Below, in pieces: positions 22,984-48,911 of a stretch of 64,000 nucleotides of DNA. Source of the stretch: an uncultured Clostridia bacterium. Its GTDB lineage: Bacteria; Bacillota; Clostridia; TANB77; CAG-508. The notes below the pieces were generated by a model that saw only the letters and a program-made list of their open reading frames with translations, searched no databases and was not told where the DNA came from. Every line of letters starts with the position of its first letter. Within the stretch, counting starts at the first letter, position 1. The position numbers were made by a program, and so were the translations under genes. The stretch is from contig CAKPRG010000001.1 of the NCBI GenBank assembly GCA_934182465.1, positions 273,549 to 337,548 on the forward strand. The letters are read 5' to 3'.

Positions 22984-25900
22984 ATGAAGAAAACTTTGAA
23001 AAAAAGCATTGTTTTAGTAATATTATTCGTACTTACAGTTGCAAATTATGGTTTTGCAATTGAAGCTATTGCTACTGAGAGTGCTTCTGTTTTTGAAACA
23101 GGAATATTCAAAAAAAGCTATGTTGATCTAAAAGCATATTTTGATGACAACGAGAAAACGAAAGAAAAACAAGCAAATGTAAACGATAAAGTTACTATAA
23201 CAACAGTATTAAGTCCAAAGGTAGATGGACTTTTGAAAGATGGAACTTTGAAATTAAATCTAGAAGATAGTGATAATGTAAATTTCAAAATAACATCAGT
23301 AACTAAAGATGGTGAAGAAAACACTGAAAATAGCGAAGCAAATAATTCATCTAATACATCAAATTCAGTAATAGATAGCAAAGGAAATGTAGATGATATT
23401 AGTGCAGCATTAAAAGGTGTAGTTGATTTGCAAAAGTCAGAAGAAAGTACTGAAAACAAAACAGTAGATTTACAAAAAGATACAGAAAATACAGCTGCAA
23501 CAGAAACAACTAAAAATGAAACAGAAAATAATGTAGTTGAAAATACCAATAATGCTACAGAAAATGTAGTAAAAGAAACAAATACTACTGATGAAAATAC
23601 TACTAATACAGAAGGAACAATAGATAATTCAACTTCAGAAAATACTACAACTGAAGAAGTAAATGATGAAGCAAAAGTTATTGAACAAGTAACACAAGAA
23701 GCAATAGAAGCTAAAAAAGAAAATTCAAATAGCGAGTTTTCTATCGCATCTGAAAATGAAATTGCTATAAAAAATATGTTAAAAGAAACAAAAATTAAAA
23801 TAACAATTCAATATAAACAAGGAGATACTGTAGATATATCTAATTTATATAAGAAACTAAAATTAGATTTAACAGGAACTTTTGTAAATACAGACTTAGA
23901 AGAAATAGCAATATCAGAAGAAAGCAAATTAACTTTAGAATGGAATTATAGTAAAGATATTGAAGTATCTTCAGAATATACAAAAGTATCTCCATTTAGT
24001 ATCAGTGATGTAAATGGTACTATAGTAAAAAACGAAATATCTGTAAAAAGAGAAATTACAGATGAAAATTATCTACCAATCAAAGAAACAAGTATAAAAA
24101 TACAAGTCCCAGAATTAAAAGGAAAATATCCAACAACAGTAAGTGTAAATGCAAATAAGTTGATGGCTACAAAAGGAGAAGAATTTGGAGCTGTAACTTT
24201 TGATGAAAATAATTGGAATTATGATGAAAAGACACATACATTAAATATATCTGTAAAAAATGAAAATGATGGAAAAGCAATAAATACACAAGGTGAAGAT
24301 ATATATGTAGTGTCTTATAGATATGAAGATTATATAAGTGATGCAAATGTACAACTTGGAAAAGACATTACAGTTAAAGTAGAAGAATATAGTGGAAAAC
24401 AGAATAATATTCAAGAGAAAAAAATAAAAACAGAACAAGAAAAAGAAATTGATGTAGGTGAGTTAATTACATATTCAGTTGGAACAACAGAAGAACCTAT
24501 AAATAAAGGAAAAATAAATGCTAACTATTATTCAGAAACACAATATGAAACAGAATTAAAAACAATTGTAAATGTAAATGTACTAACAAGTGATATGTTA
24601 GACATGATCTTATTAAAAGGAACAAATGACAGTTATATTGATGTAAATGGAAATGTATTTAATGCAGAAGAAGATATTAAATACAAAGGAGTTAATTTTA
24701 ATTATTCAGAAATAAAAAGTATTTTAGAAAATAATGGAACAATAGATTTATTAGATAAAGATGGAAACATTATTTATACAATGAATAGTTCAAATACAAC
24801 ATCAGATGAAGAAGCAAAAATAGAATTAGCAGAATACACATCAAACTTACAAATAAGAATTAATTCAGTAAAAACAAATGGAAACTTAACAGTTGAATTC
24901 GTAAAAGTAATTCAAAAAAGTAATTTTGAACCAACTGCATTTAGTACTTTTAAATCTATAAAAAGTAAAGTAGTTGCAGAAATTAAATATGTTGGAAAAG
25001 ATGATGTATATACTTTAAAAGAAATCGAAACAGAAAAAGCTCTTTCAGAGAGTTACACAAAAGCAAAATTAAGTATAAATAAAGATTACTTAACAACAAC
25101 ACAATCAAATGAAAATGTTGAATTAAAAGTAGAATTAAACAACAATGAAGAAACTAGTGATTTATATAAAAATCCATATTTTGAAATAGTATTTCCTAAA
25201 TATGTAAAATCAGTTGAAGTTCAGAGTATGAACTTAGTTTATGAAAATGGATTGAAAGTAAGTGATTTCCAAACAGAAACTAAAGGAGAAAATGTTAAAC
25301 TAAGAGTTGAATTAACAGGTACACAAGAAGGATTTGGAGAAGGAAACATAGGAAATAGTACAAGTGTTGTAATTAACTGCAAAATTGATGTAGATGAAGC
25401 AACACCAAGAAAAGAAGATCAAATTAAATTATATTATTGCAATGAAGCAGTTACAAATTATGAATCACAAACTAAATGGACAATTGGAAAACAAATACCA
25501 AGTAGCATAATAAAATCTACAAACGGATTTGATGCAGAAGTAATAGAATATCAAGCACCAACAGGATTAATTGCAGTAAATACAATCAAAAATTATGATG
25601 GAAATGCAAGTGAAATTAAATCTGTAAAACAAGGAACTGTTACAAAACAAATTGATAGAGAAAAAGGTTCTCAAATAGCTCAAATGCAAATTACTGCATT
25701 GAACAATACAGGAAATGATTGTACAGATATTGTTTTAGTAGGAAGAATACCATTCCAAGGAAACAAAAATGTAATAACAAATGAAGATTTAGGAACAACA
25801 ACAGATACAACAATAAAAGAAAGAATAAAAGCAGATGGACAAAATACATTAAATGCTGCAATATATTATTCAACAAATCCAGATGCAAATAAAAATTTAA

Positions 25901-28731
25901 CAGATAATGGAAATGGATGGACACAAGAAATTACTAATATTAGCGAAATGAAATCTTACTTAATTGTAGTTGATGGAACTATGAAAGCAGGAGATGTATT
26001 AAAATATACTTATGATTTTGAAATTCCAGAGAATTTACCATATGAAGCAGGAATTTATGGTACATTTTCAGCATACTACAACAACAACTCAGATGTAGCA
26101 GTTGTTTATGAAAGTACATCAGCAGATAAAGTTGGTTTAACTACAGAATCTGGACCAAAAGTAGAAGCTAATTTAAGTGTAGACTTAGGAGATGGAGCAG
26201 AAGTATTAGAAGGTAAAAGATTAAAATACAATTTAAATATTACTAATACAGGAAGTATAGATATAAAAGATGCAGTAGCAAAAGTGAATATACCTAAATA
26301 TACAGAATATACAGAACAAAGAAGTACATCAGGTAATAATGGAGATTATGGATTTGTTAGCTATGTAAATTATGAAAATGCAGAAGATGAAGAAAAAGAT
26401 CAATTAAACCGTTTTAACAAAAATGGAGTAATTGAAATACCAGTAGGAGAAATAAAAGCTGGAGAAAGTTTCGATAGTAGTTTTTATTTAACAGCAAAAA
26501 CTATACCAACATTAGAAGAATACGTATCAGATTTAGGTGTTACATCTGGAAATGACGATTCAGGATATTATTATGAAGATGAATCTGGTAATAAAACTTA
26601 TGTTGATAAAGTTCCAGATTTATGGATTGAAACAAAAGCAACATTAGAAAGCTCAACTTTTGCAAATAGTGTTGAAAGTAATATGATAAGAAATAAAATT
26701 AAAAAAGCTAATTTCTTATCAACAATTTCTATTAAATATGATAATGAATTACAAATTGGATATGAAAGTGATTTAAGTTTAGAATTAGAAAATATTTCAG
26801 GACAGGAATTACATAATGTTAAAGCAATATTACATACAAATCAATATATGCCATATTCTTCAGGAGAATGTGAAAAAGATGGAACACAAATAACATATGA
26901 TGAAAAACAGCATACTGTAATATATAACATTGGTACTTTAGAAATTGATGAAGGTATAAGCTTAAAAACAATTTTAACAACTCTTAATATTCCAAAAGGT
27001 GAAGAAAATTATGATTGTTATTTTGAATTAAAAGCAGATGGTATTGATACAGAACAGAGTACATCAATACCAAGAAAAATTGTAAAATCATATATAACAG
27101 CAACTCAATCAAATACAATTCTAAATAAGCAAATAAAAGAAGAAGAAAGTTTTACATTAACAATAAAAGTAAAAAATGAAGGCAAAATATCTGCAACGAA
27201 TGCAAATTTAAAATTAGAATTTCCAGAAGTATTAAAAATACAAAGTGTAAAATATGATGGTGATTTAAGTGGAATATTACAAGATGGTAATGGAACAAAT
27301 ACTATAGATGCTAAACTTCCTATATTACCAGCCAATAACACAATAAATATTAATATTACTTTTGTAACTAAGAATAATGATGGAAGTGAAAATACAAATG
27401 TAACTTTACAACCAATATTATCAAATGAAAATCAAGATAATATAACTTTAGAAAAAACTGAATTTATAGTAGTAAATGATAAACTAACTGAAAAAGAGGA
27501 AGAAGAAATAAGACAAAAAGAATCTGAAGCTGAGCAAGAAAAACAAAGACAAGAAGATAAAGCTAATGCAGATAAAGAAAGCATGTCAAACAATAATAAT
27601 AATAATAATAATAATTCAAACTCTAGCAATAATAATAATTTATCAAATTCTTCAGATAATTCTAATAGCAATACAAATCAAAATACAAATAATGCAATTA
27701 TAAATAATTCTAATAATAATTCTAATAATTCAAATAACTCAACAACAGTACAAGACGAAAAGTATACTATTGGAGGAATTGCTTGGATTGATGAAAATAA
27801 AGATGGTATTAGAGATGAAAATGAAACTAAATTAAAAGGAGTAAAAGCAAATTTAATTAGTGTTTCAGATAGTAAAGTTATTCAAACAATAGAAACAGCA
27901 GAAGATGGTGCTTATGTATTTAGAAATGTAAGTAAAGGAAAGTATGTAATAACTTTTGAATATGATCAAGAAGTATATGAATTAACAGTATATAGAAAAA
28001 ATGGAGCAGCTGAAAACGTAAATTCAGATGTAACAATGAATAAAAATTCAAAAATTGCAATTACAGATCAAATAACAGTTGAATCAGATGTTACTAATAT
28101 AGATATAGGTTTAATTAGTAGTAAAATATTTGATTTAAAAATAAATAAATATTTAACACATGCAAAAGTATCTGTAAAAGATAAAACAAAAGATTATGAT
28201 TTTGATAATAAAGAAATTGCCAAAGTAGAAATAAAAGCAAAAGATTTAAAGAAAGCTAAAGTAGAATTAGAATATACGATTGTTGTAGAAAATATAGGAA
28301 ATATAGAAGGCTATGTAGAAAAATTAGTTGATTATCTAGGAAATGATTTAGCTTTTGAAGAAAGCGATAATTCAATTTGGTACTTAGGAAATGATGGTAA
28401 ACTATATACAAAAAATTTAGACAATACAAGTTTAAAACCAGGTGAAAAAAGAGAATTAAAATTAAAATTAACAAAACAAATGACAGAAGATAATACAGGT
28501 TTTGTTAGTAATAAAGCAGAAATCGTAAGTAGTTATAGTAACACAAACTTAAATGAAAATACAAAAAATAATTCAAGTGTTCAAAATACAGCAATTTCTG
28601 TAGCAACAGGTAATACAGTTCAAATATTAAGTGGAATTACAATATTAGCAATAACTGCAACAGCGGTATATATGATATACATTGGAAAAATAAAAATTCC
28701 AAAAATAAACGGAAAGAAATTTTATAAGTAA
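22984..28731 (+). CDS. Giant surface protein A1 (about 1915 aa): signal peptide, DUF11-like repeats, poly-N linker, SdrD-B-like domain, C-terminal sorting-signal-like tail
   Basis: Signal peptide KKSIVLVILFVLTVANYGFAIEA. DUF11-like LKYNLNITNTGSIDIKDAVAKVNIP. SdrD-B motif GGIAWIDENKDGIRDENE...DGAYVFRNVSKGKYVITFEY. Tail SVATGN, hydrophobic segment, KIKIPK. ATG 22984 with an RBS. Confidence 0.8.
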   Translation: MKKTLKKSIVLVILFVLTVANYGFAIEAIATESASVFETGIFKKSYVDLKAYFDDNEKTKEKQANVNDKVTITTVLSPKVDGLLKDGTLKLNLEDSDNVNFKITSVTKDGEENTENSEANNSSNTSNSVIDSKGNVDDISAALKGVVDLQKSEESTENKTVDLQKDTENTAATETTKNETENNVVENTNNATENVVKETNTTDENTTNTEGTIDNSTSENTTTEEVNDEAKVIEQVTQEAIEAKKENSNSEFSIASENEIAIKNMLKETKIKITIQYKQGDTVDISNLYKKLKLDLTGTFVNTDLEEIAISEESKLTLEWNYSKDIEVSSEYTKVSPFSISDVNGTIVKNEISVKREITDENYLPIKETSIKIQVPELKGKYPTTVSVNANKLMATKGEEFGAVTFDENNWNYDEKTHTLNISVKNENDGKAINTQGEDIYVVSYRYEDYISDANVQLGKDITVKVEEYSGKQNNIQEKKIKTEQEKEIDVGELITYSVGTTEEPINKGKINANYYSETQYETELKTIVNVNVLTSDMLDMILLKGTNDSYIDVNGNVFNAEEDIKYKGVNFNYSEIKSILENNGTIDLLDKDGNIIYTMNSSNTTSDEEAKIELAEYTSNLQIRINSVKTNGNLTVEFVKVIQKSNFEPTAFSTFKSIKSKVVAEIKYVGKDDVYTLKEIETEKALSESYTKAKLSINKDYLTTTQSNENVELKVELNNNEETSDLYKNPYFEIVFPKYVKSVEVQSMNLVYENGLKVSDFQTETKGENVKLRVELTGTQEGFGEGNIGNSTSVVINCKIDVDEATPRKEDQIKLYYCNEAVTNYESQTKWTIGKQIPSSIIKSTNGFDAEVIEYQAPTGLIAVNTIKNYDGNASEIKSVKQGTVTKQIDREKGSQIAQMQITALNNTGNDCTDIVLVGRIPFQGNKNVITNEDLGTTTDTTIKERIKADGQNTLNAAIYYSTNPDANKNLTDNGNGWTQEITNISEMKSYLIVVDGTMKAGDVLKYTYDFEIPENLPYEAGIYGTFSAYYNNNSDVAVVYESTSADKVGLTTESGPKVEANLSVDLGDGAEVLEGKRLKYNLNITNTGSIDIKDAVAKVNIPKYTEYTEQRSTSGNNGDYGFVSYVNYENAEDEEKDQLNRFNKNGVIEIPVGEIKAGESFDSSFYLTAKTIPTLEEYVSDLGVTSGNDDSGYYYEDESGNKTYVDKVPDLWIETKATLESSTFANSVESNMIRNKIKKANFLSTISIKYDNELQIGYESDLSLELENISGQELHNVKAILHTNQYMPYSSGECEKDGTQITYDEKQHTVIYNIGTLEIDEGISLKTILTTLNIPKGEENYDCYFELKADGIDTEQSTSIPRKIVKSYITATQSNTILNKQIKEEESFTLTIKVKNEGKISATNANLKLEFPEVLKIQSVKYDGDLSGILQDGNGTNTIDAKLPILPANNTININITFVTKNNDGSENTNVTLQPILSNENQDNITLEKTEFIVVNDKLTEKEEEEIRQKESEAEQEKQRQEDKANADKESMSNNNNNNNNNSNSSNNNNLSNSSDNSNSNTNQNTNNAIINNSNNNSNNSNNSTTVQDEKYTIGGIAWIDENKDGIRDENETKLKGVKANLISVSDSKVIQTIETAEDGAYVFRNVSKGKYVITFEYDQEVYELTVYRKNGAAENVNSDVTMNKNSKIAITDQITVESDVTNIDIGLISSKIFDLKINKYLTHAKVSVKDKTKDYDFDNKEIAKVEIKAKDLKKAKVELEYTIVVENIGNIEGYVEKLVDYLGNDLAFEESDNSIWYLGNDGKLYTKNLDNTSLKPGEKRELKLKLTKQMTEDNTGFVSNKAEIVSSYSNTNLNENTKNNSSVQNTAISVATGNTVQILSGITILAITATAVYMIYIGKIKIPKINGKKFYK
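27592..27615 (+). repeat. (AAT)8 trinucleotide microsatellite inside A1, part of a poly-Asn/Ser linker
   Basis: aataataataataataataataat read directly. It encodes N8 within SNNNNNNNNNSNSSNNNN. Confidence 0.8.
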
Positions 28732-28743: not shown

Positions 28744-31700
28744 ATGAAAAATAAAAAAATATTGAAATTATTAATAGTATTTTTAATAATATTAAGTCTT
28801 TGTACTGTACTATTGAGAAATACATGGGTATATGCAGAAGATGAAGAAAATATTGATGAAAATTACGTCCAAGAAGAACCAACTAATGAAGAATCAACAT
28901 CAAACGAAGATGAAAATAATGCTATAGCAAGTTTAGATGCAGAACAAGAAAGTAAAATAAACGAAGAATTACAGCAAATGCTAACAGGAATTCCATGGAG
29001 TTATCCAAGTAATCCAATAACAAATAAAACGTTTAATAGTAATCCAAATTATTTCTGTTATCAACATGGTACACCATATGCAACTTCATCAAATATAGAT
29101 GGATTTCAAGGAAATTATAATTATATGAATGCAAGTGGATTAGCATATGTATATAATAACTTAACATTAAAGAAGCCAAGCATAGGTACAAAAATAAGTA
29201 CTGATTATAAGCAAAAAGGAACAAATCCAGGTACAAGAGTTAGCTATTCTAATTTCCATTATAGAAAAGTAAGTCAAAGTTATAGTGGTGGTTTTGCTTT
29301 TGTTTTAGCAAAATATAAACAAACTGCAGCACAGAGAGCTAGTACTGGTTATACAAATGATCCATTACAACATGCTGTATGGGCTCATGCGAGACAATTA
29401 GGAAGTGGAGAAAGTAATCCATTAGCACCTGCTATGCAAGCATTTGATGACTATTATAGTGCTGCAATGAATAATCCAAATATAAATGTAACACCAGGCC
29501 AAAATGTAGGTACAGTAAAAAGTGGTAATAATTATGTTGTTGGACCATTCAAGATGAGTAATTATGTAAGAGCAGTAGATTATAAATACTATGAACCAAC
29601 AGGATACTCAGGTGGACAAAGTTCAGGCAGTGAAAATGAAAAAGATAAAAATAATAATCCTAAATGGAATACAGGAAATACAAATTTACAAGCTAAATTT
29701 GGAACAGCTGCTAATATGCAAGGAACGATTATTAAAGCTGTTGCTGTATTAAATAATGGTAATGAAATAGAATTTCCTGTTCCAGATCCAGGAGCAACAT
29801 TTAATATATCAATTCCTATTTCAAAAGTAGGTAGTGCAGACGAATTAAAAAGTATAAAATTCACATATCAAAGAATTTATGCAACAGGAAATGGTACTTG
29901 GTATGAAGGAAAACAAATTGAACTTACATGGAGTCAAACAAATGTAGATAAAGGATGTTCAACATATTATTGTCAAAATCAAACACCAGGATATGCAACA
30001 CACCATTCATCATCTGTAGGTGGTACCCATAGTTGTACATATACATGGACTTGTTATGATCATTACTCAGGACATGGATGTGGTGGTCATACTAGATATT
30101 GTGGTGGTTGTAAAACAAGAAGTTGGACAGATTCTGAAGGAAAAAAACATAGTGAAAGCTATTGTCCAGGTCATACATATACAATATCAGGTTGTCATTG
30201 CTCTTGTCCAGGACATTCTGCAACACATACATCAACATTTAAATGCTCTCATGGTTACACAAATTGTAGATCTTTTTCTTGGAAAGTTACTAGTATAAAT
30301 GAGGATCATTGCCAAGATGGATTAGAAGCATATGGTAGTTTAGGATCTACAAGAAAAATATATAAAATAAATGTAAATGTGCCACTTACAACAAATGTAT
30401 CAATTTACAAATATATTGTGAAAGTAAATCATCAAAATAATGATTACATTTATGGTAGACAAGATGCAGATGATACAAGTAGAAAAACAAAGACAGATAA
30501 AAATACTAATACAGTAAAAGTTGAAAGAGGAGATAGAATAACATATAGAATAGATATTGTTAATAGTTCAAGATTTGATATTAGACTAAAAGTTAAAGAC
30601 TATTTCCCTTCAAATGTAGAACAAGTTACAGTACCAGGCTCTTTCTATACAGAGAATCAACCAGGAGGAAATCAAAATGGAGCATGGATACAAGTAAACG
30701 CTAGAAAGACAAAAACATTTTATGTTACTGTAGTAGCAAATGCTTTAGAAAGTAGTTATACTAATACGGTTCAAATAATTACAAGAAATGATACAAATCC
30801 ACATATGGAATATGTAAAATATGGTGGACATGGTCCTGGACCAATAGTAAATTTAAGCAATAGATTAAGTGATTCAGATACATATACAATAAAAGAATAT
30901 CAAGTAAACATTAATAAACATATTACGAGTGTAGAACATACAACAAATAGTGAAAAAACTTATGATTCAACAGCACCTAATGAAAGTAACTTAAAAACAA
31001 ATCAAACTGCTGGAACAAGAGTAAATAGAACAGATGAACAAAATCAGAGTGATCCAGTATATGTAGAATATGGTGATAGGGTTTATTATGAAATAGATGT
31101 ATATAATACAAATAATAAAGATTATAGACAAACTAATAATTCGGCTAAACCATATTGGAAGCCAGATATGATACACGTAAATGTAGAAGATACATTGCCA
31201 GCAAAATATAGTGATTTGAAAATAACAATAGAAAATGCAATGAATTCACCTTCTATAACAAAACCAGGTACAAGTAGCACATCAGGTGGAACAATAAAAA
31301 TTAGTGATCTACAAATTGCTGCTAATACACATGCAACAATAAAAATATCATTAGTTGTTGAAGAAGTAAAAGCAGATACTGTTTGTGGAAATACTGCTAA
31401 AATAGTAGGAAAAATAAATAATATAAATAATCGTTATATTAAGAATAATGAAACAGCTTCTCGTTTAACATCAACAGATTATTATAAATTGAATGATTAT
31501 TACATCAATATAGACAAATATGTAAGTTCTTATGATGGATTAATAATGAATCAAAATAATCAAAATCAATTAACAAATGAAACAAGTACAATCAATACAG
31601 ACGAATCTGTTGAAAGACGTGGAAAGAGTGATACAGAAAAAGAAAATTCACCATTTAAGGTTGAAAAAACAGAAACTGTAACATACTCAATTAGATTAGA

Positions 31701-34700
31701 TAATAAATCAACAAATAATGCTACAAAACCAGCAACAAAAGTCAGAACAACAGATATTACTGAAACATTACAACAAGGCTTAGAATTCCAAAATGATGTA
31801 ACAGCAAAAATATTTAAGTCAGATGGTTCAGTAAGAGTAGATAATATAAAAGTAAATATTACAGATAAAGGAAATAATGTATATAACTTAAATATTGGTA
31901 ATAAACAAGGAGAAGAATATACAACATTAAATCCTGGAGAATATATTATTTACTATGTAAAAGTAAAAGTAACAGAAAGCAACATGTATTTATACAACTT
32001 AGAAAATAAAGCAGAAATTACAACTTTAACAAACATAAACAATACTGAAAAAAATCCACAAAGAGTTGTAACTGAGCAAAATAAATATCCAATCAAAAAA
32101 TCTAGCGAATATGTAAAACAAAAAGATTTAGTAATAGCTGGTAAGGTTTGGTTAGATAAAAATCAAGATGGTTATATGACAGAAGATGAAACAAAATTCA
32201 AAGATATTGTAGTACATTTATATGATGCAAAAACAGACAAAATAGTAAATACAGTAAGAACAAATGAAAATGGACTATATACTTTTGGAAGAGTTTATAA
32301 AGCATCAACAAAATATGATGGAAGTTCTGTAATAGGAACTATAGATGAAGAAGGCAACAAGAAAAATTATAAACAAGGTACAGATTTAAATAGTTATTAT
32401 GTAGAATTTGAATATGATGGCTTAATGTATAAATCAACAGAAATTTATTCAAATGATAAACATATATCTGAAAGTTGGTTACAACCAACAGATAGTGGAA
32501 ACTACATTAATGATTCAAATGCTTACGAATTTAAAGATGTAAGAGAACAATTTAACACAAATTATGAAACAATAGGATATAATGTAGGATACAAAGTTGG
32601 AGAAGATAAAAATTCAAATTCTGGAACAACTACATTAGAATATAGCAAAGATAATCATAATAGTACATTATTAGAAGACAGAAACAGATTAATGACAGCA
32701 AGAAGTTTCATAATTTCAAAAGATAAAAACAAATCAGATGGAACAGCTAACAATACAAAATCATTATGGTTATATCCATTAAATAGTTCAAATTATAAAT
32801 TAGCTGAAACAGAATATTTAAAATATATAAACTTAGGACTTGAAGAAAGAGAAGATATAGATATTTCTTTAAAGAAAGATGTATATCAAGTAAAAACAAC
32901 AATTAATGGTGAAGAAGTAATATATGATTACAATCAAGAAAATACAAATAGTGAATATACAAATGATTATGTAATTAAAAAAGCTTATGGAATAGATTTC
33001 TATGAATCTGATTACAAATACAGATATGAACAATACAAAAATGAAAAAGTACAAAATTACAAAGGAAAAGAAAGTGAATTAAATGTTGAGGTAACATTTA
33101 AGATAGCTATTACAAATGAAAACATAAGAGAAAATGAACCATATAGAGAAAATAAAGATGTACCAGTAGATGTTACAATAGATGAACTTGCAGATTACTA
33201 TGATACAAACTTTATGAAATATACTGGTGAAGAGAACAATACAATAAAAGTAAAAACTAAAGATGGTGATTACTTAAAAGATAAAGATATTAAAATTGCA
33301 GAAGCTTGGTATAAATCAAGTGAAGATTCAACTGAATCTAGACAATTAACTTTGTCAAATACTTCAAATTACAATAACGAAAGAAACTTTACTGCAGATG
33401 GATATAATACATTATATATTAGAGGTTTTGATGATATTAAGATTAAAGAAGGCGAAACAGGATATGTATTTGTAAAATATGTATTAGATAAAGAAGAAGG
33501 TACTAGAAACTTAAAGATAACAGATTCAAAAGCAAATAATTTAGGGATTGAAGGAATTGCCGAAATAAATGCTTACTCAACATGGTATGGTGCCGTATCT
33601 GAAGAATATAAGAAAGAAAATCCAGCATACGAAGAAAACTATCCAGCAGGATTAGTTGATAAAGATTCAAATCCAGGAAATATCGGTGATGACAATGGAG
33701 TTTCAACATCAGCAACTGGAAATAAGAGTGCAGATGATACAGGATTATATGAAGATGATACATATAAAACAGGAATACAAATGAATGTAAAAACTATAAC
33801 AAATCCACCAGAAAATGGTGATCCACCAAGTATTGAACAATACAGAGTTTTATCAGGATTTGTATGGGATGATTCAAGATCAGAAAGTATAAATGATAGC
33901 GAAGATAATGTTCAATATGCTGGTAATGGTTTATACAATACAAGTGATACAAAACTTGGAGAAGCAAAATCAAATAAAAATGTATTAGAATTATTAGATA
34001 AATCAAGCGACTATAAAAATATAGTAAATAGATTTAATAGTCCAACAGCAGAACAAAATGACTTCGTAGTAAAAGACGCAAAAGCACAATTAATTGAAAT
34101 TGTAAAAATACCAGAAAATGAAGTTGATCCTTCAAGTGGAGGAACAAAATATTACGAAGAAATAGTAGATGCTAATTGGGCAAGAGTTCAAGAAACAAGA
34201 ACAAACAGCAATGGTAAATATGTATTAAGTGGATTTATTCCAGGTTACTATACAGTAAGATTTACTTATGGTGATACAACTTCAGATGAAATGATGACAT
34301 TTAACGGACAAGATTACAAAACAACAAAATATACAACAGGTGTAGAAAATTATACATATAAACCAGAAGCTGGTGAAACAGAATTAAATACAGAAAAAAT
34401 AAAAGAATATGATAAAATAATGGAAGCATTAGAGGCAGAAAATAAATCTGATGCAAGAGATGACGAAATTGATAGACTAAATGCTATTTCATATTCAGAA
34501 ATAATGACAAATGAAAAAGCTGATACTTTAAAAGGTATAAGTATACCAGAAGGAACAGATAAAGAAGCAAGAAAAGAAACTCTAGCAGAAAAAACTAAGA
34601 TGAATGCAGAAACTGTAACATTCTATGTAAAACCAGAAAAACTAGATTCTTATGAATCAAATGTAACTTATGCAACTTGTACAAATATACCATATGATAA

Positions 34701-36117: not shown

Positions 36118-36129
36118 TCAATAATAAAA

Positions 36130-36162: not shown

Positions 36163-36241
36163 TTGGGACAATAAAAATTTTGTAGCCTTTTAAAATAAAG
36201 AAAAAAATTCCTAAAAAATTTGAAAAAAAGTCAAAAAAAGG

Positions 36242-36270
36242 TTGAAAAAGTTTACATAACGGTATATAAT
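36242..36270 (+). promoter_or_regulatory. Sigma-A promoter (TTGAAA, 17 nt, TATAAT) for the A2-B2 operon
   Basis: Seen directly. A second candidate (TTGACT, 16 nt, TAAAAT) is at 36426-36453. Confidence 0.5.
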
Positions 36271-41666: not shown

Positions 41667-44600
41667 ATGAAAAATAAAAAAAGTAGATTAGTTATATGTT
41701 TTATACTAACATGCATAATTGTATTAAGCACCATAATTGGTTTAGCAACTTATGTAAGTGCTAAAGTTGATACAAGTAAATCACAATCTTATTCACAAGG
41801 AAATGGAAATCCTGCACCAGGATATATTACAGTAAGTGATTTGTGGACAAGATATGACATATTATGTTGTGCACACGGAGTTCATTTACCAAGTGCAAAT
41901 CAAACTGTACTTAATTCAGAAAAAGGTAGTGTTACAGAAGCTTATTTAACACAAAACGATATTGGTAAAAAGAATTTTGAACATACTGTTGATTCAACAA
42001 GTAGTTCAGCAAATTCACCATTTAAGTCAGCATCATATACAAATGAGACTTTTGGATATTACAAAGTAAATAATACTTATGTAGCAAAACCAATGGAAGC
42101 ATATATCTTAGCTGAAATGGCAAAAGAACAAATAGTTAGAGGACATGATAGTAATGTTCAAATTGCTTGGTGGAACACAGAAGCTGGTATGAAAGGTGTA
42201 ACAGCTTCTGCTCCAGAAGCATTAACATTAGAAGCACAAGATTTTGAAGCATATATTAAAAAAATTGCAAAATCTACAGATCCAAGCACATATACAACTC
42301 AACAATATGAATTTGAAGTAGATGGAACAAAATATACTGGTCAAGTACAAGCACCAGAATTAAATTACGAACCAAAATATAACAAAGATGCAAACCAAGA
42401 TGGTAAAGAAGACAGATATGATAATATAACAGTTTCTTGGAATGGAGAAAAATATAAAATAGGTCCATTCTCTGTAAATTATGTTGAAAGCAAAGTAAAA
42501 CATGAAGGTAGAGATGAAGTAATGTTTGCAGGTATTACAGATGCTAAAATCTATACAGATTTAGGTGAAGTACCAGCAGACAAATGGAAATTTGTATGGC
42601 TAGAAGGACAAAGAGACGCAAACGATACACAAGAATATCCTCATACAAATGAAGTATTTTATATAGAAATGGATTTTATAGAAAATGCAAAATATTTCAA
42701 AAACTTACATTTCGATTTTAAATATATGAATGCTGGTGGACAATATGATGAACTAGCAGGAACATATTTTAAAGCAACATGGAAACCAATGTCAAAAGCA
42801 CAATATTGTGCAGGTGGATATACAGATAGTGATGGTGATGATCATCCATGTTCACATGGATTCATGAGCAGACATGTTAAATCTTGGACATATTGGTTAC
42901 AATTAACAAGCTTAACATCTGATGAATCACAATTATTAGCTTATGGTATTGTTGGTGCTAGATGGTACAATCCAGCACAATTAGATTTAGACAACAGTAC
43001 AGACTTACCAAAAGATCATAAAGGAAAAGTAGAAATCAAAAAAGTCGTAGTTGATGAAAATGGAAATGAGCTTACATCACTAGATGATTCAAAATTCACA
43101 TTTAAGCTTTATATAAATGATAAATTATACGATACAATTAGAGTAAAAGCTAACGAATCAGTTACAGAAACAATTAAATGGAAAGATGGAGAAGAAACTC
43201 CAACATATAGAATTGAAGAAGTAAATCTTCCAGATGAATATACAGTAAAAGAAATAGAAAATGCTTCTGGTACAATGGCAGAAGAAGCAACAGTTAAAAT
43301 AAAAGCTATTAACAAAGTTAAACCACATAAAGGATACTTAAAAATAGAGAAAAAAGTAACAGAAGTTGCAGAACAAGATGAAACATATAAATTTAATATT
43401 TATATAGATAGTGTTTTAAAAGATCAAATTGCAATAACAATTCCAGCAGGTCAAACAGGAAATAGTGTTACAGTAGGACCTTATGAATGGAATGGAAGTG
43501 ATGCTCCAGTATATAGAGTAGAAGAAACAGAAATTCCAGAAAATGTAACACAATTCAACATGATAAATGAAAAAGGAAAGTTAGTTGCAGGAGATGAAGC
43601 TACACCAGTTACAGTAACAGCAATAAATGATAATAGTGATAATAAAGATCATGAAGGAACAATAGAAATTACAAAACAAGTTACAGAATTAGCTAAAGAA
43701 GACGAAATATATAAATTTAATGTTTATATAAATGGTGAATTAAAAGACCAAGTACAAATTACTGTTCCAGCAGGTCAAACATCAAATACAGTAACAGTTG
43801 GACCATTCAAATGGAAAGGTGATAAAGCACCAAGCTATGAAGTAAAAGAAGTTGAAATTCCATCAGGTGTTAAACAAGTTAATATTGTTAACTCAACAGG
43901 AACTTTAATAGATGGAAAAAATGGACAAAAAGTTATTGTAACAGCTATAAATAATAATGGTGGAGATAAACCAGAAGAAAATGAAGCAAAATTAGTTATT
44001 ACTAAAAAGGTTGACGGAAATGCATCAACAGATAAACAATTTAAATTTAAAATTACTATTGATGGAACAGTTTATTATGCACAAATAACAAAAGATTCAA
44101 GTTGGTCACAAACAGTAAAATGGAAAGAAGGAGAACAAGCTCCAACTTATAGTGTAGAAGAAATTGATATTCCAGATGGATATGAAAAAGTAAGTATTAC
44201 AAATGCATCTGGAACATTAGAAGCTGATAAAGATGTATATGTAGAAGCTTTAAATAAAGGTGATGATAAAGAATATTCTGGAACAATTCGTGTTACTAAA
44301 AAAGTAGAAAATTCAACAGATACAAATAAGAAATTCAAATTTAAAATTACTATTGGAGATACAACTTATACAAAAGAATTAGCAAATGGTGAAAGTTGGA
44401 CTGAAAATGTAAAATGGATTGGAAAAGATAATGCACCTAAGTATAAAGTAGAAGAAGTTGAAGTACCAGATGGATATAGCATTGTAAGTGTAGAAAATGC
44501 CGAAGGTACAATGGAAGAAAATAAAACAGTTATAGTAAAGGCAATAAATAGAGACAATGATGATAAAGAACATCAAGGTCAAATAACAGTAAAAAAAGAA

Positions 44601-47600
44601 GTACAAATTGATGATAAAGTAAAAGATGAAGCAATAGATGGAACATTCGATTTTGAAGTTACTATAATGGGAACATTCGAAATGAATGGAGAGAGCGTTG
44701 TAAATGGAAGTAGAACAATAAAACAAAGTGTAAAAGCTGGTGGAAGTTTTACAACTCCAACAATAAAATGGAAAGGCAAAAATGCTCCAACATATAAAGT
44801 AACAGAAACAAATTTACCAGATGGTTGGAAATTAGTTGATATTACAAATGCTTCTGGATTAGTAGAAGATAATACAAATATTGAAGCAGTTTGTACAAAC
44901 GAATATAAAATAACAGTAGAATATGAATTAACAATGCAAATGGGTGGTATGGTATGGCATGATGTAGCATTAAACCCAGATGACAAAAATACAGAAAATT
45001 CAAAACCAAATGGAAAATATGATGCAGGTGTAGAAGAAGGAATTGAAAAAGCACAAGTTACAATAAAAAGATACTTATGTGATGACAATGGAAATGTAAT
45101 TTCATGTACAGGAAATGCTAAAGCTTGGGATAAAGATGGAAATGAAATTTCATGGCCAATTTATACAGACATAGATGGTACATGGGATGTAGCAAAAGTT
45201 GAAATAACAGTAGCTAAAAATGGAGAACAAGGAAGAGTAAGATATGGAGTTGAATTTGGATATGATGGACAAACTTATGAACCAACTACATTCTTAGTTA
45301 CAGGTAATGGAGATGCAAATAGCTACAAAAAAGCATCAAGAGTTGATAGAGGAAACTTCTTCTATGATTCAATGGCAATTGATAATGAAAATGATAGAAA
45401 AGAATTTAATGCAAAATTCACAAATATAACAGGTGATGAAGCAATTAACTCAAACGGAGAAACAACTGGATACAGTACAGATGCAAATGGAAATAAAACA
45501 GCAACATTAGATTATGTATCAACAGATTCATTAAATACAATGGGAACAACAAGAAAAGAATCAACATTAGTTACAACAACAGATGACCACTATATTAAAG
45601 ATGACTTCTTAATGAAAGCAGAAACAACAACAGGTGGATTAACATTCCCATTTGATACAGCAATTCACTTAGAGAGTATAGATAAGAAAATTAATGAATT
45701 AGGAGCAACACATATTTACAAATATTCAGCAACATATCCATACTTACTAAGTATAAACTTAGGATTAGTTACAAGAAAAGAAGCTGAACTTGCAACTACA
45801 AAAGATGTATATTCAGCAGCAGTAGTAATTAATCAAAAAATGTTAAATTATCAATATAATCAAGCAATTGATTTTGAAAATGTAAAATATCAAGACTACT
45901 TAAACTTACAAGTTGAAGTAGCAGATGCAGATATAGAATATACATTAGATTTATATAAAACAGATTACTATTACAGAGCTAAAATATATGAAGAAAATGC
46001 AGAAGTAGCTGGAGCATTAAAGAGATTTTATAAATCTTTAGGATATACAGCAGAAAACGCATTAGATTCAGAATTAGATCTAGATGTTTATGTAACATAT
46101 AAAGTAAGTGTATATAATGATTCACAAACATATTTTGCAACAGTAAATGAAATAACAGATTACTTTGATGAAGATTATGAATTAGTTGAAGTTGAAAAGA
46201 GCAGATATTTACAAGAAGCAAATGGTGTTGCAGTAAATCAAGTAACAAAAATTGCTGATAGTCCATACTATAAAGTTTTAAGACAACAAGTAAATGGAGA
46301 TAATGTAGCTTGGGAAACAACTAACGATAATCAAAACCCAGTAAAATGGGAAAATGCAGGAACAGTTAAAGGTTCAGATGGAGTTACTTATAATAAAATA
46401 AAAACAAGTTCTATAAAAGATGAAATATTAGCATCTGGTGAAAGAATTGATTTATACTTAACATTTAGAGTAAAAACAGATGAAACTTCAGCTGATGGAG
46501 TATTAAATTGTGTAAGATTAGGAAGTAAAGCAAATGTGGCTGAAATTTCAAATTACACAACATATAACTCAAATAATAAATCAGATATAGCAGGTAAAGT
46601 TGATAAAGATTCAGCTCCAAACAATGTTAATATCGAAGAATTTAATGAAAAAACATGGTATGAAGATGATACAGATTCAGCACCAGTAATCACATTATCT
46701 TTATATGACACATCAAGAGAAGTAAATGGTATTGCTTGGGAAGATAAAGAAGACACAAAAATAGACAATGGATATGGACAAATAGTAGGTAATGGAGTAT
46801 ATGATCCAGGCGAAGAATTAATAGCAAATTTAACTACAGAATTATGGGAGAAAGTTAGAGTTAAGAAAATTGACGATAGCGGAAATGAAGTTAAAGATGC
46901 AAATGGAAACTTAGTATATACAGAATATGATTTCTTATGGCCAGAAGATTATGAAATCCAAGCTGGTAAAACATTAAAAGAATTAACAGGATTTGATTCA
47001 ACAACTAAGACAGGTGTTGATCAAGGAAATAAAGGACAATATGGATTTACAGGAGTTCCAACAGGTAACTATGTAGTAAGATTTGTATATGGTGATAGTG
47101 ATGAAACTTCAGCACCAGCAAACTATGATAAAGATGGTATTCCAGCAGTTTACAATGGACAAGATTTCAAGACAGTAGCTTATGAAACTGGATTTAATGG
47201 AATAACAGATACAAACTCAGACGGATATGTAGATAATGAATGGCATAACTTAGAAAATGAAGATTTAGCAAATGCTAGAGTTTCAGATGCTAGAGATAGT
47301 GAAGCAAGAAGACTTGAAATTACATCAAAATCTAGAATTTTAACAAACTCAAATACAACAATTTTAAATACAGCAAATGATAGAAATGCAGACCATACAA
47401 AATTATATGAAGAATACTATATGACAGCAGATACAGCAAAAATCAATTTGAATATTGAAAATATGGTAAGCTTAAAGAAACAAAAAGTTAATGTTACAAA
47501 TCCAACAACAGGAGCAGTAGAAGAAATAGCAGCTGGTGAAGAAAAACAAGTTGGTGGAATTACAGTAAACTATGTAAAAGGTAAAGTAAACTTAGCAAAT

Positions 47601-48911
47601 GGTGGCAATACATCATTAGATAGATTAGACTTTACTTACAAAGTAAATAACATAGATGTTGGTCTTGAAGAAAGAGCAAGTACAGAAATTAAATTAGATA
47701 AACAAATTGAAAATATAACATTAACAGACAATACTGGAGCAGTTATTTTAAAAGCAGATTATGATTTAATCTATACTCCAAAATTTGATGAAAAAACAGG
47801 AAAAACATCTATAAAAGTAGATGCAAAATTAAATCCTGAAACATCAATTGGAACAGATAATTTACAAGCATTAAATAGAGATGAAGCAGCAGGATTACAA
47901 AACTTTAGATATATTTACTACGATAACTCAATTGCTCAATCATTAACATTAAATGTAACTTATAGATTTACAGCATTAAACTTAGGTGAAGTTGATAGAA
48001 TTGGATTATTAGGAAATAGTAAATTTGATGAACCACAAACTATATTAGAAGAAGTTAAGAAATTATCTGAATCTGATTATTCATACAATACAAGAGAAAA
48101 GACATTTAGTAAAACTGCAAATGCAGATGGAAAAGTTTATGCAGATTCATTTGGTAAATATTTAGGAAGTATTTACTATGAAGGCTCTTATGCAAAAGCA
48201 GAATTAGATGATATAGTAACAACAAGAATAGATACTTTAATCGATTATGTTGATAATAATGCAATCTTTAAGGCAGAAGAAAATAATGGATTAAATAATA
48301 GTTGGAGAGTAATTACAGTTGATGAGTTAGCAGCAGATGATTCTGATATAATAGACAAAAATATAATTACAACTTATGAAGATGGAACAAAGAATATAGA
48401 AGATTCAAAAGGTGCAACTTATGAAACAGCTGAAAGATATAATATCATCTTAAGTATAGAAAATAACGATAGTTCTGCAACAGAAATGTCAAATAAAGAC
48501 TTCAATGTAAAATTAATTCCATATAGTGCTACAAAAGCATTTGATGTAAATAGTGATTTAGATTACAACTATACAACAGCAATGAAGATGAATATGACTA
48601 GATCAATTGATGCAGAAGTTAATGATGAAGACTTATCATTTGATAATATGGCAGAAATAGTTAAATTAGACAATACAGCAGGTAGAAGAGATGTTACAAC
48701 AATTGCAGGTAATGCAAACCCTAAAGAAGGTGAATTTGCAACATCATTAAAAGAGAGAGACGCAAGTGCAACAGAATTAATTACATTCTCTCCACCAACT
48801 GGTATGAATGCAAAAACAATTTTAGCAATCCAAATTGCATTAGTTACAATTTTAGGATTAGGAATTGTATCAGCTGGTATAATTGTTATTAAGAAAAAAG
48901 TTCTTAAATAA
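41667..48911 (+). CDS. Giant surface protein B2 (2414 aa), paralog of B1: N-terminal Cys...Gln module, about five tandem Cna-B/E-box-like domains, SdrD-B-like domains, SPPTG sorting signal
   Basis: ATG 41667 lies 2 nt after the A2 stop, with RBS AGAGAGGTG. Repeats carry YxVEExxxPxGY. C-terminal FSPPTG, hydrophobic segment, KKKVLK. Confidence 0.8.
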   Translation: MKNKKSRLVICFILTCIIVLSTIIGLATYVSAKVDTSKSQSYSQGNGNPAPGYITVSDLWTRYDILCCAHGVHLPSANQTVLNSEKGSVTEAYLTQNDIGKKNFEHTVDSTSSSANSPFKSASYTNETFGYYKVNNTYVAKPMEAYILAEMAKEQIVRGHDSNVQIAWWNTEAGMKGVTASAPEALTLEAQDFEAYIKKIAKSTDPSTYTTQQYEFEVDGTKYTGQVQAPELNYEPKYNKDANQDGKEDRYDNITVSWNGEKYKIGPFSVNYVESKVKHEGRDEVMFAGITDAKIYTDLGEVPADKWKFVWLEGQRDANDTQEYPHTNEVFYIEMDFIENAKYFKNLHFDFKYMNAGGQYDELAGTYFKATWKPMSKAQYCAGGYTDSDGDDHPCSHGFMSRHVKSWTYWLQLTSLTSDESQLLAYGIVGARWYNPAQLDLDNSTDLPKDHKGKVEIKKVVVDENGNELTSLDDSKFTFKLYINDKLYDTIRVKANESVTETIKWKDGEETPTYRIEEVNLPDEYTVKEIENASGTMAEEATVKIKAINKVKPHKGYLKIEKKVTEVAEQDETYKFNIYIDSVLKDQIAITIPAGQTGNSVTVGPYEWNGSDAPVYRVEETEIPENVTQFNMINEKGKLVAGDEATPVTVTAINDNSDNKDHEGTIEITKQVTELAKEDEIYKFNVYINGELKDQVQITVPAGQTSNTVTVGPFKWKGDKAPSYEVKEVEIPSGVKQVNIVNSTGTLIDGKNGQKVIVTAINNNGGDKPEENEAKLVITKKVDGNASTDKQFKFKITIDGTVYYAQITKDSSWSQTVKWKEGEQAPTYSVEEIDIPDGYEKVSITNASGTLEADKDVYVEALNKGDDKEYSGTIRVTKKVENSTDTNKKFKFKITIGDTTYTKELANGESWTENVKWIGKDNAPKYKVEEVEVPDGYSIVSVENAEGTMEENKTVIVKAINRDNDDKEHQGQITVKKEVQIDDKVKDEAIDGTFDFEVTIMGTFEMNGESVVNGSRTIKQSVKAGGSFTTPTIKWKGKNAPTYKVTETNLPDGWKLVDITNASGLVEDNTNIEAVCTNEYKITVEYELTMQMGGMVWHDVALNPDDKNTENSKPNGKYDAGVEEGIEKAQVTIKRYLCDDNGNVISCTGNAKAWDKDGNEISWPIYTDIDGTWDVAKVEITVAKNGEQGRVRYGVEFGYDGQTYEPTTFLVTGNGDANSYKKASRVDRGNFFYDSMAIDNENDRKEFNAKFTNITGDEAINSNGETTGYSTDANGNKTATLDYVSTDSLNTMGTTRKESTLVTTTDDHYIKDDFLMKAETTTGGLTFPFDTAIHLESIDKKINELGATHIYKYSATYPYLLSINLGLVTRKEAELATTKDVYSAAVVINQKMLNYQYNQAIDFENVKYQDYLNLQVEVADADIEYTLDLYKTDYYYRAKIYEENAEVAGALKRFYKSLGYTAENALDSELDLDVYVTYKVSVYNDSQTYFATVNEITDYFDEDYELVEVEKSRYLQEANGVAVNQVTKIADSPYYKVLRQQVNGDNVAWETTNDNQNPVKWENAGTVKGSDGVTYNKIKTSSIKDEILASGERIDLYLTFRVKTDETSADGVLNCVRLGSKANVAEISNYTTYNSNNKSDIAGKVDKDSAPNNVNIEEFNEKTWYEDDTDSAPVITLSLYDTSREVNGIAWEDKEDTKIDNGYGQIVGNGVYDPGEELIANLTTELWEKVRVKKIDDSGNEVKDANGNLVYTEYDFLWPEDYEIQAGKTLKELTGFDSTTKTGVDQGNKGQYGFTGVPTGNYVVRFVYGDSDETSAPANYDKDGIPAVYNGQDFKTVAYETGFNGITDTNSDGYVDNEWHNLENEDLANARVSDARDSEARRLEITSKSRILTNSNTTILNTANDRNADHTKLYEEYYMTADTAKINLNIENMVSLKKQKVNVTNPTTGAVEEIAAGEEKQVGGITVNYVKGKVNLANGGNTSLDRLDFTYKVNNIDVGLEERASTEIKLDKQIENITLTDNTGAVILKADYDLIYTPKFDEKTGKTSIKVDAKLNPETSIGTDNLQALNRDEAAGLQNFRYIYYDNSIAQSLTLNVTYRFTALNLGEVDRIGLLGNSKFDEPQTILEEVKKLSESDYSYNTREKTFSKTANADGKVYADSFGKYLGSIYYEGSYAKAELDDIVTTRIDTLIDYVDNNAIFKAEENNGLNNSWRVITVDELAADDSDIIDKNIITTYEDGTKNIEDSKGATYETAERYNIILSIENNDSSATEMSNKDFNVKLIPYSATKAFDVNSDLDYNYTTAMKMNMTRSIDAEVNDEDLSFDNMAEIVKLDNTAGRRDVTTIAGNANPKEGEFATSLKERDASATELITFSPPTGMNAKTILAIQIALVTILGLGIVSAGIIVIKKKVLK

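What the first reader, a model, noticed from the sequence alone, without database searches (positions are those of the whole stretch)
22984..48911. A 26-kb locus of four giant secreted proteins arranged as a tandemly duplicated two-gene module (A1-B1 / A2-B2)
Four consecutive ORFs of 1915, 2457, 1724 and 2414 aa fill 40% of the window. A1 and A2 are collinear paralogs carrying DUF11-like repeats and one SdrD-B-like domain. B1 and B2 are collinear paralogs sharing an N-terminal module, SdrD-B-like domains and near-identical C-terminal regions (RRTNFATTIGN...SATEVITLSPPTG vs RRDVTTIAGN...SATELITFSPPTG). Each A gene is translationally coupled to its B gene, with gaps of 13 and 2 nt. A strong terminator and a new consensus promoter separate the two pairs. 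So the locus looks like an operon-level duplication followed by divergence, for example the Cys/His insert in B1 versus the Cna-B array in B2. This architecture suggests a paired adhesin, or stalk plus tip, surface system that I do not recognise as a described family.
Basis: partly seen in the sequence, partly recalled or inferred. Interest (0 to 1): 0.85.

Follow-up and report, generated by a model that had tools for sequence, protein, structure and literature searches.

The report
Duplicated pair of giant adhesin genes
An uncultured gut Clostridia bacterium carries two diverged copies of a two-gene unit encoding giant cell-surface fibre proteins, and one partner of each pair probably has a previously unrecognised kind of "chemical harpoon" (thioester) tip domain; this is a new variant of known Gram-positive adhesins, not a new kind of system.

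Summary
Four co-directional ORFs of 1915, 2457, 1724 and 2414 aa fill 22984-48911. A1/A2 are collinear paralogs (29% identity over about 1750 aa). B1/B2 are paralogs over their C-terminal 1250 aa (25%) and share an N-terminal domain. A and B are tightly coupled (12-nt and 1-nt gaps), and a hairpin terminator plus a near-consensus promoter separate the pairs.

Relatives settle the history. Closer uncultured gut Clostridia MAGs keep mreD-PBP2-minC-A1-B1-A2-B2-spoIIE, while more distant ones have one A-B pair at the same site. So the whole pair was duplicated in tandem.

A is an all-beta rod of CnaA/CLIPPER/SdrD-B-type Ig-like domains.

All four proteins end in xTG + transmembrane helix + basic tail; B's SPPTG fits the C. 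difficile sortase motif. No sortase lies nearby.

Verdict: an uncharacterised, lineage-restricted family of paired fibrillar adhesins, with B probably a divergent Class-II-like thioester adhesin. This is a new variant of a known kind, of moderate interest.

The parts
22984..28731 (+). A1, 1915 aa: signal peptide, N/T/E-rich low-complexity stretch, beta-sandwich array homologous to A2, E/K- and poly-Asn linker, SdrD_B, terminal CLIPPER-like domain, 'SVATG' + TM + basic tail
27766..28110 (+). SdrD_B domain of A1 (Pfam 60.3 bits, cutoff 29.7)
28744..36117 (+). B1, 2457 aa: signal peptide, thioester-like head with Cys/His-rich insert, divergent Ig-like middle, conserved B core, 'SPPTG' + TM + basic tail
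28921..30378 (+). B1 thioester-like N-terminal domain (about residues 60-545): Cys105 in FCYQHG, Gln209 in LQHAVW, distal Gln524 in HCQDGLEAYG
29956..30312 (+). Cys/His-rich insert of B1 (14 Cys, residues 405-523), inside the head domain just before the strand that carries the distal Gln
32362..36093 (+). B1 C-terminal core shared with B2 (residues 1207-2450): SdrD_B-like and prealbumin-like modules with long inserts, ending in a CLIPPER-like domain
36127..36164 (+). Terminator-like hairpin (14-bp stem, dG -15.2 kcal/mol, z -5.9) plus U-run, after B1
36242..36270 (+). Promoter-like site TTGAAA-17-TATAAT (11/12) upstream of A2
36491..41665 (+). A2, 1724 aa: the best conserved of the four (orthologs 47-52% identical, uniform length of about 1700 aa)
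36587..39370 (+). [not shown]
39383..39721 (+). Best-scoring DUF11/CLIPPER domain of A2 (family score 58 bits, cutoff 24.6; three stretches)
40673..40939 (+). SdrD_B domain of A2 (56.7 bits). A profile of the A family hits S. aureus SdrD B domains in the PDB (E 1.7e-20)
41537..41662 (+). A2 C-terminal signal: TIKTG-E + TM + KRKRGV. x[VI][KR]TG is kept in 118 of 119 listed orthologs
41667..48911 (+). B2, 2414 aa: signal peptide, thioester-like head, six CnaB-like repeats, conserved B core, 'SPPTG' + TM + KKKVLK
41766..42986 (+). [not shown]
42984..44915 (+). Six tandem ~105-aa CnaB/DUF7601-like repeats of B2 (residues 440-1083), each keeping a Lys / Glu / Asn isopeptide-type triad
45216..48896 (+). 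B2 C-terminal core homologous to B1 (residues 1184-2410)
48789..48803 (+). SPPTG motif of B2 (Pro and Gly invariant, Thr at least 90% in 35 family members), followed by TM helix and KKKVLK
48925..48958 (.). Terminator-like hairpin flanked by A- and T-runs, after B2 (end of the locus)
21972..22418 (-). 148-aa ORF between minC and A1, conserved next to the A gene in all relatives; function unknown, so whether it belongs to the system is uncertain

Best explanation
The locus encodes two diverged copies of a two-gene unit for giant, cell-surface fibrillar adhesins. It belongs to an uncultured, low-GC, spore-forming gut Clostridia lineage.

Export and anchoring. Each protein is exported by a Sec signal peptide. 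Each is held at the cell surface by a C-terminal tripartite signal: an xTG motif, a hydrophobic helix and a basic tail. For B this is most likely a sortase substrate of the clostridial (S/P)PxTG type.

A protein. A is a rod built entirely of Ig-like stalk domains of the isopeptide-forming families (CnaA-like/CLIPPER, SdrD-B).

B protein. B is a longer rod with an N-terminal head that is a divergent, Class-II-like thioester domain. The head has a beta-barrel/helix lobe carrying the reactive Cys, a large inserted beta-sandwich, and a long hairpin that brings a conserved Gln back to the Cys. If the Cys-Gln thioester forms, B would attach covalently to an amine on a host or environmental ligand, as SfbI, Cpa and other TIE proteins do.

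Co-expression. A and B are co-transcribed and translationally coupled, so they are made together. The pair behaves as one evolutionary unit.

History. The unit was duplicated in tandem in the ancestor of this clade. Copy 1 (A1-B1) then evolved faster; B1 gained a Cys/His-rich insert and B2 a CnaB array, which suggests two ligand specificities.

Shown: ORFs, paralogy, coupling, synteny, single-copy relatives, fold models, conserved residues.
Inferred: thioester chemistry, sortase anchoring, adhesion, and any A-B cooperation.
For: - ORFs and paralogy.
- Coupling and the separate second transcription unit. The same spacing is seen in relatives.
- One pair at the same minC-proximal site in L010-L016, against four genes in L001-L009. 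The A and B trees are congruent.
- B head, conserved residues: Cys is kept in 90 of 93 non-redundant family members and the Q of QxxΦW in 92 of 93, sitting at the start of a helix. The distal Gln is at least 90% conserved and lies at the tip of a long hairpin after a beta-sandwich.
- This order matches the three TED motifs and the Class II topology described in PMC6194298.
- The six B2 repeats keep a K/E/N triad, and orthologs hit DUF7601/SpaA.
- Tails: SPPTG fits the C. difficile SrtB motif (S/P)PXTG, which is cleaved T|G (PMC4155245). Tail motifs are conserved across families.
- A canonical Pfam-TED protein in relative L016 carries the same xKTGE tail as A.
Against: - Foldseek against the PDB found no TED.
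- Pfam TED PF08341 hits none of the proteins or the tail hits. The PDB profile search was empty. hhalign against a canonical TED gave only 44% probability on a 19-residue motif.
- I could not read model coordinates, so Cys-Gln proximity is unverified.
- Sortase anchoring is uncertain. No sortase gene or TLxTC signature lies in the window or in any fetched locus.
- A's motif lacks Pro. The similar NVQTG motif was not cleaved by C. difficile SrtB in vitro.
- In single-pair relatives, B ends in LPP[FY]G rather than xPPTG.
- There is no direct evidence of adhesion or of any A-B interaction.
Confidence: 0.6

Rival explanations
1. The B head is not a thioester domain. The conserved Cys, Gln and Trp would then serve another role, such as fold packing, metal binding together with the adjacent C...CSHG...H cluster, or a non-covalent ligand site. 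On this reading all four proteins are simply large, non-covalent, membrane- or wall-anchored surface fibres or structural envelope proteins.
Confidence: 0.27
2. The two pairs are sortase-assembled pili: A is the polymerised shaft pilin and B is the tip adhesin, as Cpa is for Spy0128 in S. pyogenes.
Confidence: 0.05
3. A and B form an obligate heteromeric surface structure. B's reactive head might lock covalently onto A (self-assembly without sortase), or A's cohesin-like sandwiches might act as a scaffold for other proteins, such as the nearby dockerin-bearing LRR protein.
Against: There is no evidence of interaction. The cohesin hits rank below the adhesin/pilin Ig-like hits, and Pfam Cohesin is not matched. 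Both proteins have independent anchors. Known TEDs target host proteins (PMC4450167, listed).
Confidence: 0.08

Closest known systems
TIE proteins (thioester-isopeptide-ester domain adhesins), especially Class II thioester-domain proteins such as BaTIE, SaTIE and EfmTIE86 (PMC6194298; PMC4450167)
   Different: B is not detected by Pfam TED, by PDB profiles or by Foldseek. The inserted sandwich is about 200 aa rather than about 75. There is a Cys/His cluster, expanded to 14 Cys in B1. B is 4-5 times longer than BaTIE, and its roughly 1250-aa C-terminal core has no described counterpart. B always sits downstream of a partner gene A. The thioester itself is unproven.
CLIPPER (DUF11, PF01345) fibrillar adhesins (PMC12617251)
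   Same: A2 has bona fide CLIPPER domains. All four proteins end in a CLIPPER-like domain, and their size and all-beta stalk architecture are typical of fibrillar adhesins.
   Different: A has no recognisable adhesive tip domain, and most of its N-terminal 950 aa escape Pfam. The anchor motif is x[VI][KR]TG rather than LPxTG or OmpA-like.
S. aureus Sdr proteins / MSCRAMMs (SdrD B domains)
   Same: SdrD_B domains are present in A1, A2 and (borderline) B1. The A-family profile hits SdrD structures at E 1.7e-20.
   Different: There is only one B-type domain per A protein, no SD repeats, and no A-region 'dock, lock and latch' domains were detected.
Clostridioides difficile SrtB substrates with (S/P)PxTG signals (PMC4155245)
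   Same: B1 and B2 end in SPPTG followed by a hydrophobic helix and a Lys/Arg tail. Relatives use TPPTG or SEPTG.
   Different: No sortase gene was seen. The A proteins lack the Pro residues, and distant B relatives have LPP[FY]G.
Sortase-assembled Gram-positive pili with TED tip adhesins (S. pyogenes Cpa/Spy0128)
   Same: A stalk-like protein gene and a TED-like protein gene lie adjacent.
   Different: There is no pilin-specific sortase, the proteins are several-fold larger, and each has a full anchor.

Membership tests
Bacterial thioester domain (TED) / TIE proteins | Bond-forming Cys in a [YFL]CΦζ motif | tested here: met
   B1 has F-C105-Y-Q and B2 has L-C67-C-A. The Cys is kept in 90 of 93 non-redundant family members and is invariant in alignments A2, A4 and A5. 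The motif definition is from PMC6194298.
Bacterial thioester domain (TED) / TIE proteins | TQxxΦW motif on helix alpha2 next to the thioester | tested here: met
   B1 has LQ209HAVW and B2 has VQ165IAWW. Q, A and W are invariant, and the motif lies at the start of model helix 130-136. The leading Thr is not conserved.
Bacterial thioester domain (TED) / TIE proteins | Bond-forming Gln on a C-terminal beta-strand, placed next to the Cys | tested here: inconclusive
   A candidate Gln (B2 Q422, B1 Q524) is at least 90% conserved and sits at the tip of a long hairpin after the inserted sandwich. The Cys-Gln distance could not be read because no coordinates are available.
Bacterial thioester domain (TED) / TIE proteins | TED fold (beta-barrel plus three-helix bundle) | tested here: inconclusive
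   [not shown]
Bacterial thioester domain (TED) / TIE proteins | Match to the Pfam TED model PF08341 | tested here: not met
   There is no hit in A1, B1, A2 or B2 at E<=0.01. None of the homologs carry it in their precomputed Pfam, and nine remote hits lack it too. A different protein in relative L016 does match (33 bits).
Bacterial thioester domain (TED) / TIE proteins | An actual Cys-Gln thioester (17-Da mass loss, amine reactivity) | not testable with these tools
   This needs mass spectrometry or a structure of the recombinant domain.
Sortase substrates (cell-wall sorting signal) | LPxTG-like motif near the C-terminus | tested here: inconclusive
   B1 and B2 have SPPTG, which fits (S/P)PXTG. 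A1 has SVATG and A2 has TIKTG, which are non-canonical. Distant B relatives have LPP[FY]G.
Sortase substrates (cell-wall sorting signal) | Hydrophobic helix and positively charged tail after the motif, and an N-terminal signal peptide | tested here: met
   All four sequences show these features by direct reading. No signal-peptide predictor was run.
Sortase substrates (cell-wall sorting signal) | A cognate sortase encoded in the genome | not testable with these tools
   None is found in the 64-kb window or in loci L001-L019. The rest of the genome was not available.
CLIPPER / DUF11 (PF01345) | Pfam match above the gathering score | tested here: met
   A2 scores 58.1 bits against a cutoff of 24.6, with three stretches, and TIGR01451 scores 42 bits. 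A1 scores only 18.6 bits and B1 has only a 16-bit TIGR01451 match; both are sub-threshold.
SdrD_B (PF17210) | Pfam match above the gathering score | tested here: met
   A1 scores 60.3 and A2 scores 56.7 against a cutoff of 29.7. B1 scores 28.9, just below. B2 has no hit, although the region is homologous to B1.
CnaB-type isopeptide domains (B2 repeats) | Lys (first strand), catalytic Glu and Asn (last strand) triad | tested here: met
   All six repeats keep K, E (in Y.V.E..P) and N (in V.A.N). Orthologs hit DUF7601/SpaA. Bond formation itself is not testable here.
Sortase-assembled pilus locus | Pilin-specific (class C) sortase gene within the locus | tested here: not met
   There is no sortase Pfam hit or TLxTC signature in the window or in related loci.

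The most novel reading that the evidence does not exclude
The A-B unit is an obligate two-component surface fibre. B's reactive thioester-like head, a new TED class with a giant sandwich insert and a Cys/His metal cluster, would lock covalently onto the partner A or onto the neighbouring cell. This would build a sortase-independent, covalently cross-linked fibre or cell-cell tether. It would be a core, vertically inherited feature of this uncultured gut lineage, which would explain its fixed position beside the cell-shape and division genes.
Probability: 0.08. Interest if true: 0.75.

Novelty: new variant of a known kind. Interest (0 to 1): 0.45.

Why it matters
If the B head is a working thioester domain, it defines a TED class that current models (Pfam PF08341) miss. 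The profile found only 120 clusters at 50% identity among 1.84 billion representatives. That would extend covalent 'chemical harpoon' adhesion to abundant but uncultured human and animal gut Clostridia.

The exact proteins recur in many human gut metagenomes. They are therefore plausible colonisation factors and possible markers or antigens for this lineage.

The clean single-pair versus duplicated-pair comparison offers a natural case of adhesin sub- or neo-functionalisation.

The Cys/His-rich insert next to the putative reactive site could be a new regulatory or metal-dependent element of TED chemistry.

Isopeptide and thioester domains are also raw material for protein-ligation tools.

Tried and rejected
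- PDB sequence searches. Single-sequence searches with B1 and B2 found nothing meaningful. A profile of the B head also found nothing.
- Foldseek against the PDB with the B head model gave no significant hit.
- The afdb50 fold library was not available.
- hhalign of the B-head alignment against a canonical TED from relative L016 gave only 44% probability on a YxxGPF-type motif. phmmer of that canonical TED against the PDB also failed. So sequence methods are uninformative for TEDs in either direction.
- Scanning remote profile hits for Pfam TED found none. They carry VWA, SdrD_B, DUF11 and DUF5979 instead.
- The full-length B alignment (A5) is too wide for a PDB profile search.
- Invertible-element idea for the small ORF upstream of A1: only weak AT-rich inverted repeats were found. 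Dropped.
- DNA tandem repeats or phase-variation tracts in the locus: nothing notable.
- Sortase search by Pfam and by the TLxTC signature in the window and 19 loci: none found.
Full report
**1. The observation**

The window has 23-31% GC and a uniformly positive GC skew. Four co-directional ORFs occupy 22978/22984-28731, 28744-36117, 36491-41665 and 41658/41667-48911. The ATG-start versions (1915, 2457, 1724 and 2414 aa) are exactly the proteins on record in NCBI, ENA and Logan assemblies. Each belongs to a 90%-identity cluster of 85-98 members.

A1 and A2 align collinearly at 29% identity, E 1e-178. B1 and B2 align over their C-terminal ~1250 aa at 25% identity, E 4e-63. A and B share only a short SdrD_B-like stretch.

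The A1 stop and the B1 ATG are 12 nt apart, with GGAGG overlapping the stop. The A2 stop and the B2 ATG are 1 nt apart.

Between B1 and A2 lie 373 nt. They contain a 14-bp hairpin with a U-run (dG -15.2 kcal/mol, z -5.9 against shuffles) and a TTGAAA-17-TATAAT site. A second hairpin closes the locus at 48925-48958.

**2. Context and distribution**

Upstream are mreB, mreC, mreD, a PBP2-type transpeptidase and minC. Downstream are spoIIE, a WG-repeat protein, an unassigned 419-aa ORF and tatD. Further out lie capsule, VanW/G5 and M23 genes and an LRR-dockerin protein. This is core chromosome, not an island.

All homologs come from uncultured Clostridia or Clostridiaceae MAGs and gut metagenomes of humans (including Hadza), mice, deer and rabbits. 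None has an informative name.

In relatives at 36-83% identity the order mreD-PBP2-minC-(small ORF)-A1-B1-A2-B2-spoIIE-WG-ORF-tatD is kept. So are the short A-B gaps and the ~420-nt B1-A2 spacer.

In more distant MAGs (L010-L016) there is a single A-B pair at the same place after minC. There B is shorter, at 1590-2160 aa.

Neighbour-joining trees of A and of the B core are congruent. Each shows three clades: single-copy, copy 2, and a faster-evolving copy 1. These trees are only midpoint-rooted, so the timing is approximate.

**3. What A is**

Pfam finds SdrD_B in both A proteins and DUF11 in A2; DUF11 is now called CLIPPER. CLIPPER is a CnaA-like isopeptide stalk domain of fibrillar adhesins (PMC12617251). 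A profile of 62 A-family sequences hits only SdrD/UafA B-type domains in the PDB.

No distinct ligand-binding head was found. A2 orthologs are 47-52% identical over their full length and are remarkably uniform at about 1700 aa.

**4. What B is**

Pfam gives only borderline SdrD_B/CarboxypepD_reg hits for B1 and nothing for B2. PDB sequence searches are empty.

B2 residues 440-1083 are six ~105-aa repeats. Each keeps a Lys/Glu/Asn triad typical of CnaB isopeptide domains, and orthologs hit DUF7601/SpaA.

The C-terminal ~1250 aa form a family-specific core with many invariant residues. It includes two SdrD_B/prealbumin-like modules with long inserts and a final CLIPPER-like domain.

The most informative part is the N-terminal domain.

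- Conserved residues. Across 93 non-redundant B1- and B2-type sequences a Cys is kept in 90 (B1 C105 in FCYQHG; B2 C67 in LCCAHG). A Gln-x-x-Φ-Trp motif is kept in 92 (B1 LQ209HAVW; B2 VQ165IAWW). A third Gln, about 350-420 residues after the Cys (B2 Q422, B1 Q524), is at least 90% conserved.
- Model. An AF2 model of B2 34-440 is confident (pLDDT 88.6, pTM 0.80). It shows a mixed alpha/beta lobe with the QxxΦW motif at the start of a helix, then a large beta-sandwich, then a long beta-hairpin with Q422 at its tip.
- Match to the literature. TEDs have a bond-forming Cys in [YFL]CΦζ, a TQxxΦW motif on helix alpha2 next to the bond, and a bond-forming Gln on a late beta-strand. In Class II TEDs a beta-sandwich is inserted before a hairpin that loops back to the Cys lobe (PMC6194298). 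The B head fits this pattern, with a much larger insert of about 200 aa.
- Cys/His cluster. A cluster of the form C...CSHG...H sits just before the Gln hairpin. B1 expands it to 14 Cys (residues 405-523).

**5. Caveats on the thioester reading**

- Foldseek finds no TED.
- Pfam TED, a PDB profile search and hhalign against a canonical TED all fail.
- I could not inspect coordinates to confirm that Cys67 and Gln422 touch.

On the other side, TEDs are notoriously divergent. A Pfam-positive TED from relative L016 likewise finds no PDB TED by phmmer.

An exhaustive profile search found only 120 clusters at 50% identity with this head among 1.84 billion representatives. Most are giant proteins. A few are joined to VWA, DUF11 or DUF5979 domains, which are typical adhesin partners.

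I rate 'divergent Class-II-like TED' at roughly 0.6.

**6. Anchoring**

All four proteins begin with typical signal peptides. All end in a motif ending in TG, followed by a hydrophobic helix and a Lys/Arg tail.

B1 and B2 have SPPTG. Family members have TPPTG, SEPTG or SPPTG, with Pro and Gly invariant. This fits the (S/P)PXTG signal cleaved between T and G by C. difficile SrtB (PMC4155245).

A2-type proteins have x[VI][KR]TG-E (118 of 119 listed orthologs), and A1 has I[ST][VI][AS]TG. The same STKTGE tail ends a canonical TED-DUF11 protein in L016, which suggests a lineage-wide sorting module.

Against a sortase reading:
- No sortase gene is present in the window or in 19 related loci.
- Pro-less motifs such as NVQTG were not cleaved in vitro.
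- Distant B proteins end in LPP[FY]G.

Anchoring by sortase is therefore plausible for B and open for A. A plain transmembrane anchor is the fallback.

**7. Mechanism proposed**

Two co-expressed surface fibres are made per unit. A is a pure isopeptide-type rod. B is a longer rod presenting a reactive, probably thioester, head for covalent capture of a ligand. After duplication the two units diverged, most visibly in the B stalk and in the insert near the reactive site. That is consistent with two specificities. Whether A and B interact is unknown.

**8. Rival readings**

- B head is not a thioester domain: 0.27.
- Heteromeric or covalently self-assembling fibre, or a scaffoldin-like role: 0.08.
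- Sortase-assembled pilus: 0.05.

**9. Novelty and interest**

The components are known kinds: TIE/fibrillar adhesins, CLIPPER, SdrD-B, CnaB and clostridial sorting signals.

New here are:
- a TED-like head class invisible to current models, with a giant sandwich insert and a Cys/His cluster;
- a roughly 1250-aa B core without a described counterpart;
- the strict A-B gene pairing, its fixed core-genome position, and its tandem duplication.

I classify the locus as a new variant of a known kind, with interest 0.45. It is useful for the adhesin/TED field and for understanding uncultured gut Clostridia, but it is not categorically new and currently has no experimental handle.

Noticed in passing
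L016:17140-22299: A relative with a single A-B pair carries a third giant gene of 1720 aa just upstream of spoIIE. It has a canonical Pfam TED (33 bits), DUF11 repeats and the same STKTGE + TM + basic tail as A2 (38% identity over the last 210 aa). So classical TIE adhesins coexist with the B-type head in this lineage and share A's anchor module.
   Followed up: partly
window 21972-22418 (- strand): A 148-aa Asn-rich ORF with a weak DUF7339 match lies between minC and A1. It is conserved beside the A gene in every relative. It sits on the opposite strand in L001/L003, and only weak AT-rich inverted repeats flank it.
   Followed up: partly
window 21121-21735: minC directly follows mreBCD-PBP2 but is not followed by minD/minE. 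The adhesin locus sits where minDE would usually be, and this arrangement is conserved in all relatives.
   Followed up: no
[not shown]
   Followed up: partly
window 29956-30312 (B1 residues 405-523) and protein P0066: The Cys/His-rich insert varies greatly in length among B1 orthologs. P0066 carries a much longer array of C/H motifs, while B2 keeps only a minimal C381...C395-S-H-G...H403. This looks like an expandable metal-binding or disulfide module next to the putative reactive site.
   Followed up: partly
window 51756-54563: A WG-repeat protein (506 aa) and a 419-aa ORF with no Pfam hit follow spoIIE. They are conserved in that order in all four-gene relatives.
   Followed up: no
window 27400-27760 (A1 residues ~1490-1590): A1 has a Glu/Lys-rich stretch followed by a poly-Asn/Ser linker that A2 lacks. 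The DNA shows only a short 12-nt repeat (27703-27729), so there is no obvious slippage tract.
   Followed up: partly
window 4721-6910 and 10036-12696: A VanW/PG_binding_4/G5 protein lies upstream, along with a CpsB phosphatase and a Wzz-tyrosine-kinase fusion (capsule-type regulators). These are further cell-envelope genes in the neighbourhood.
   Followed up: no
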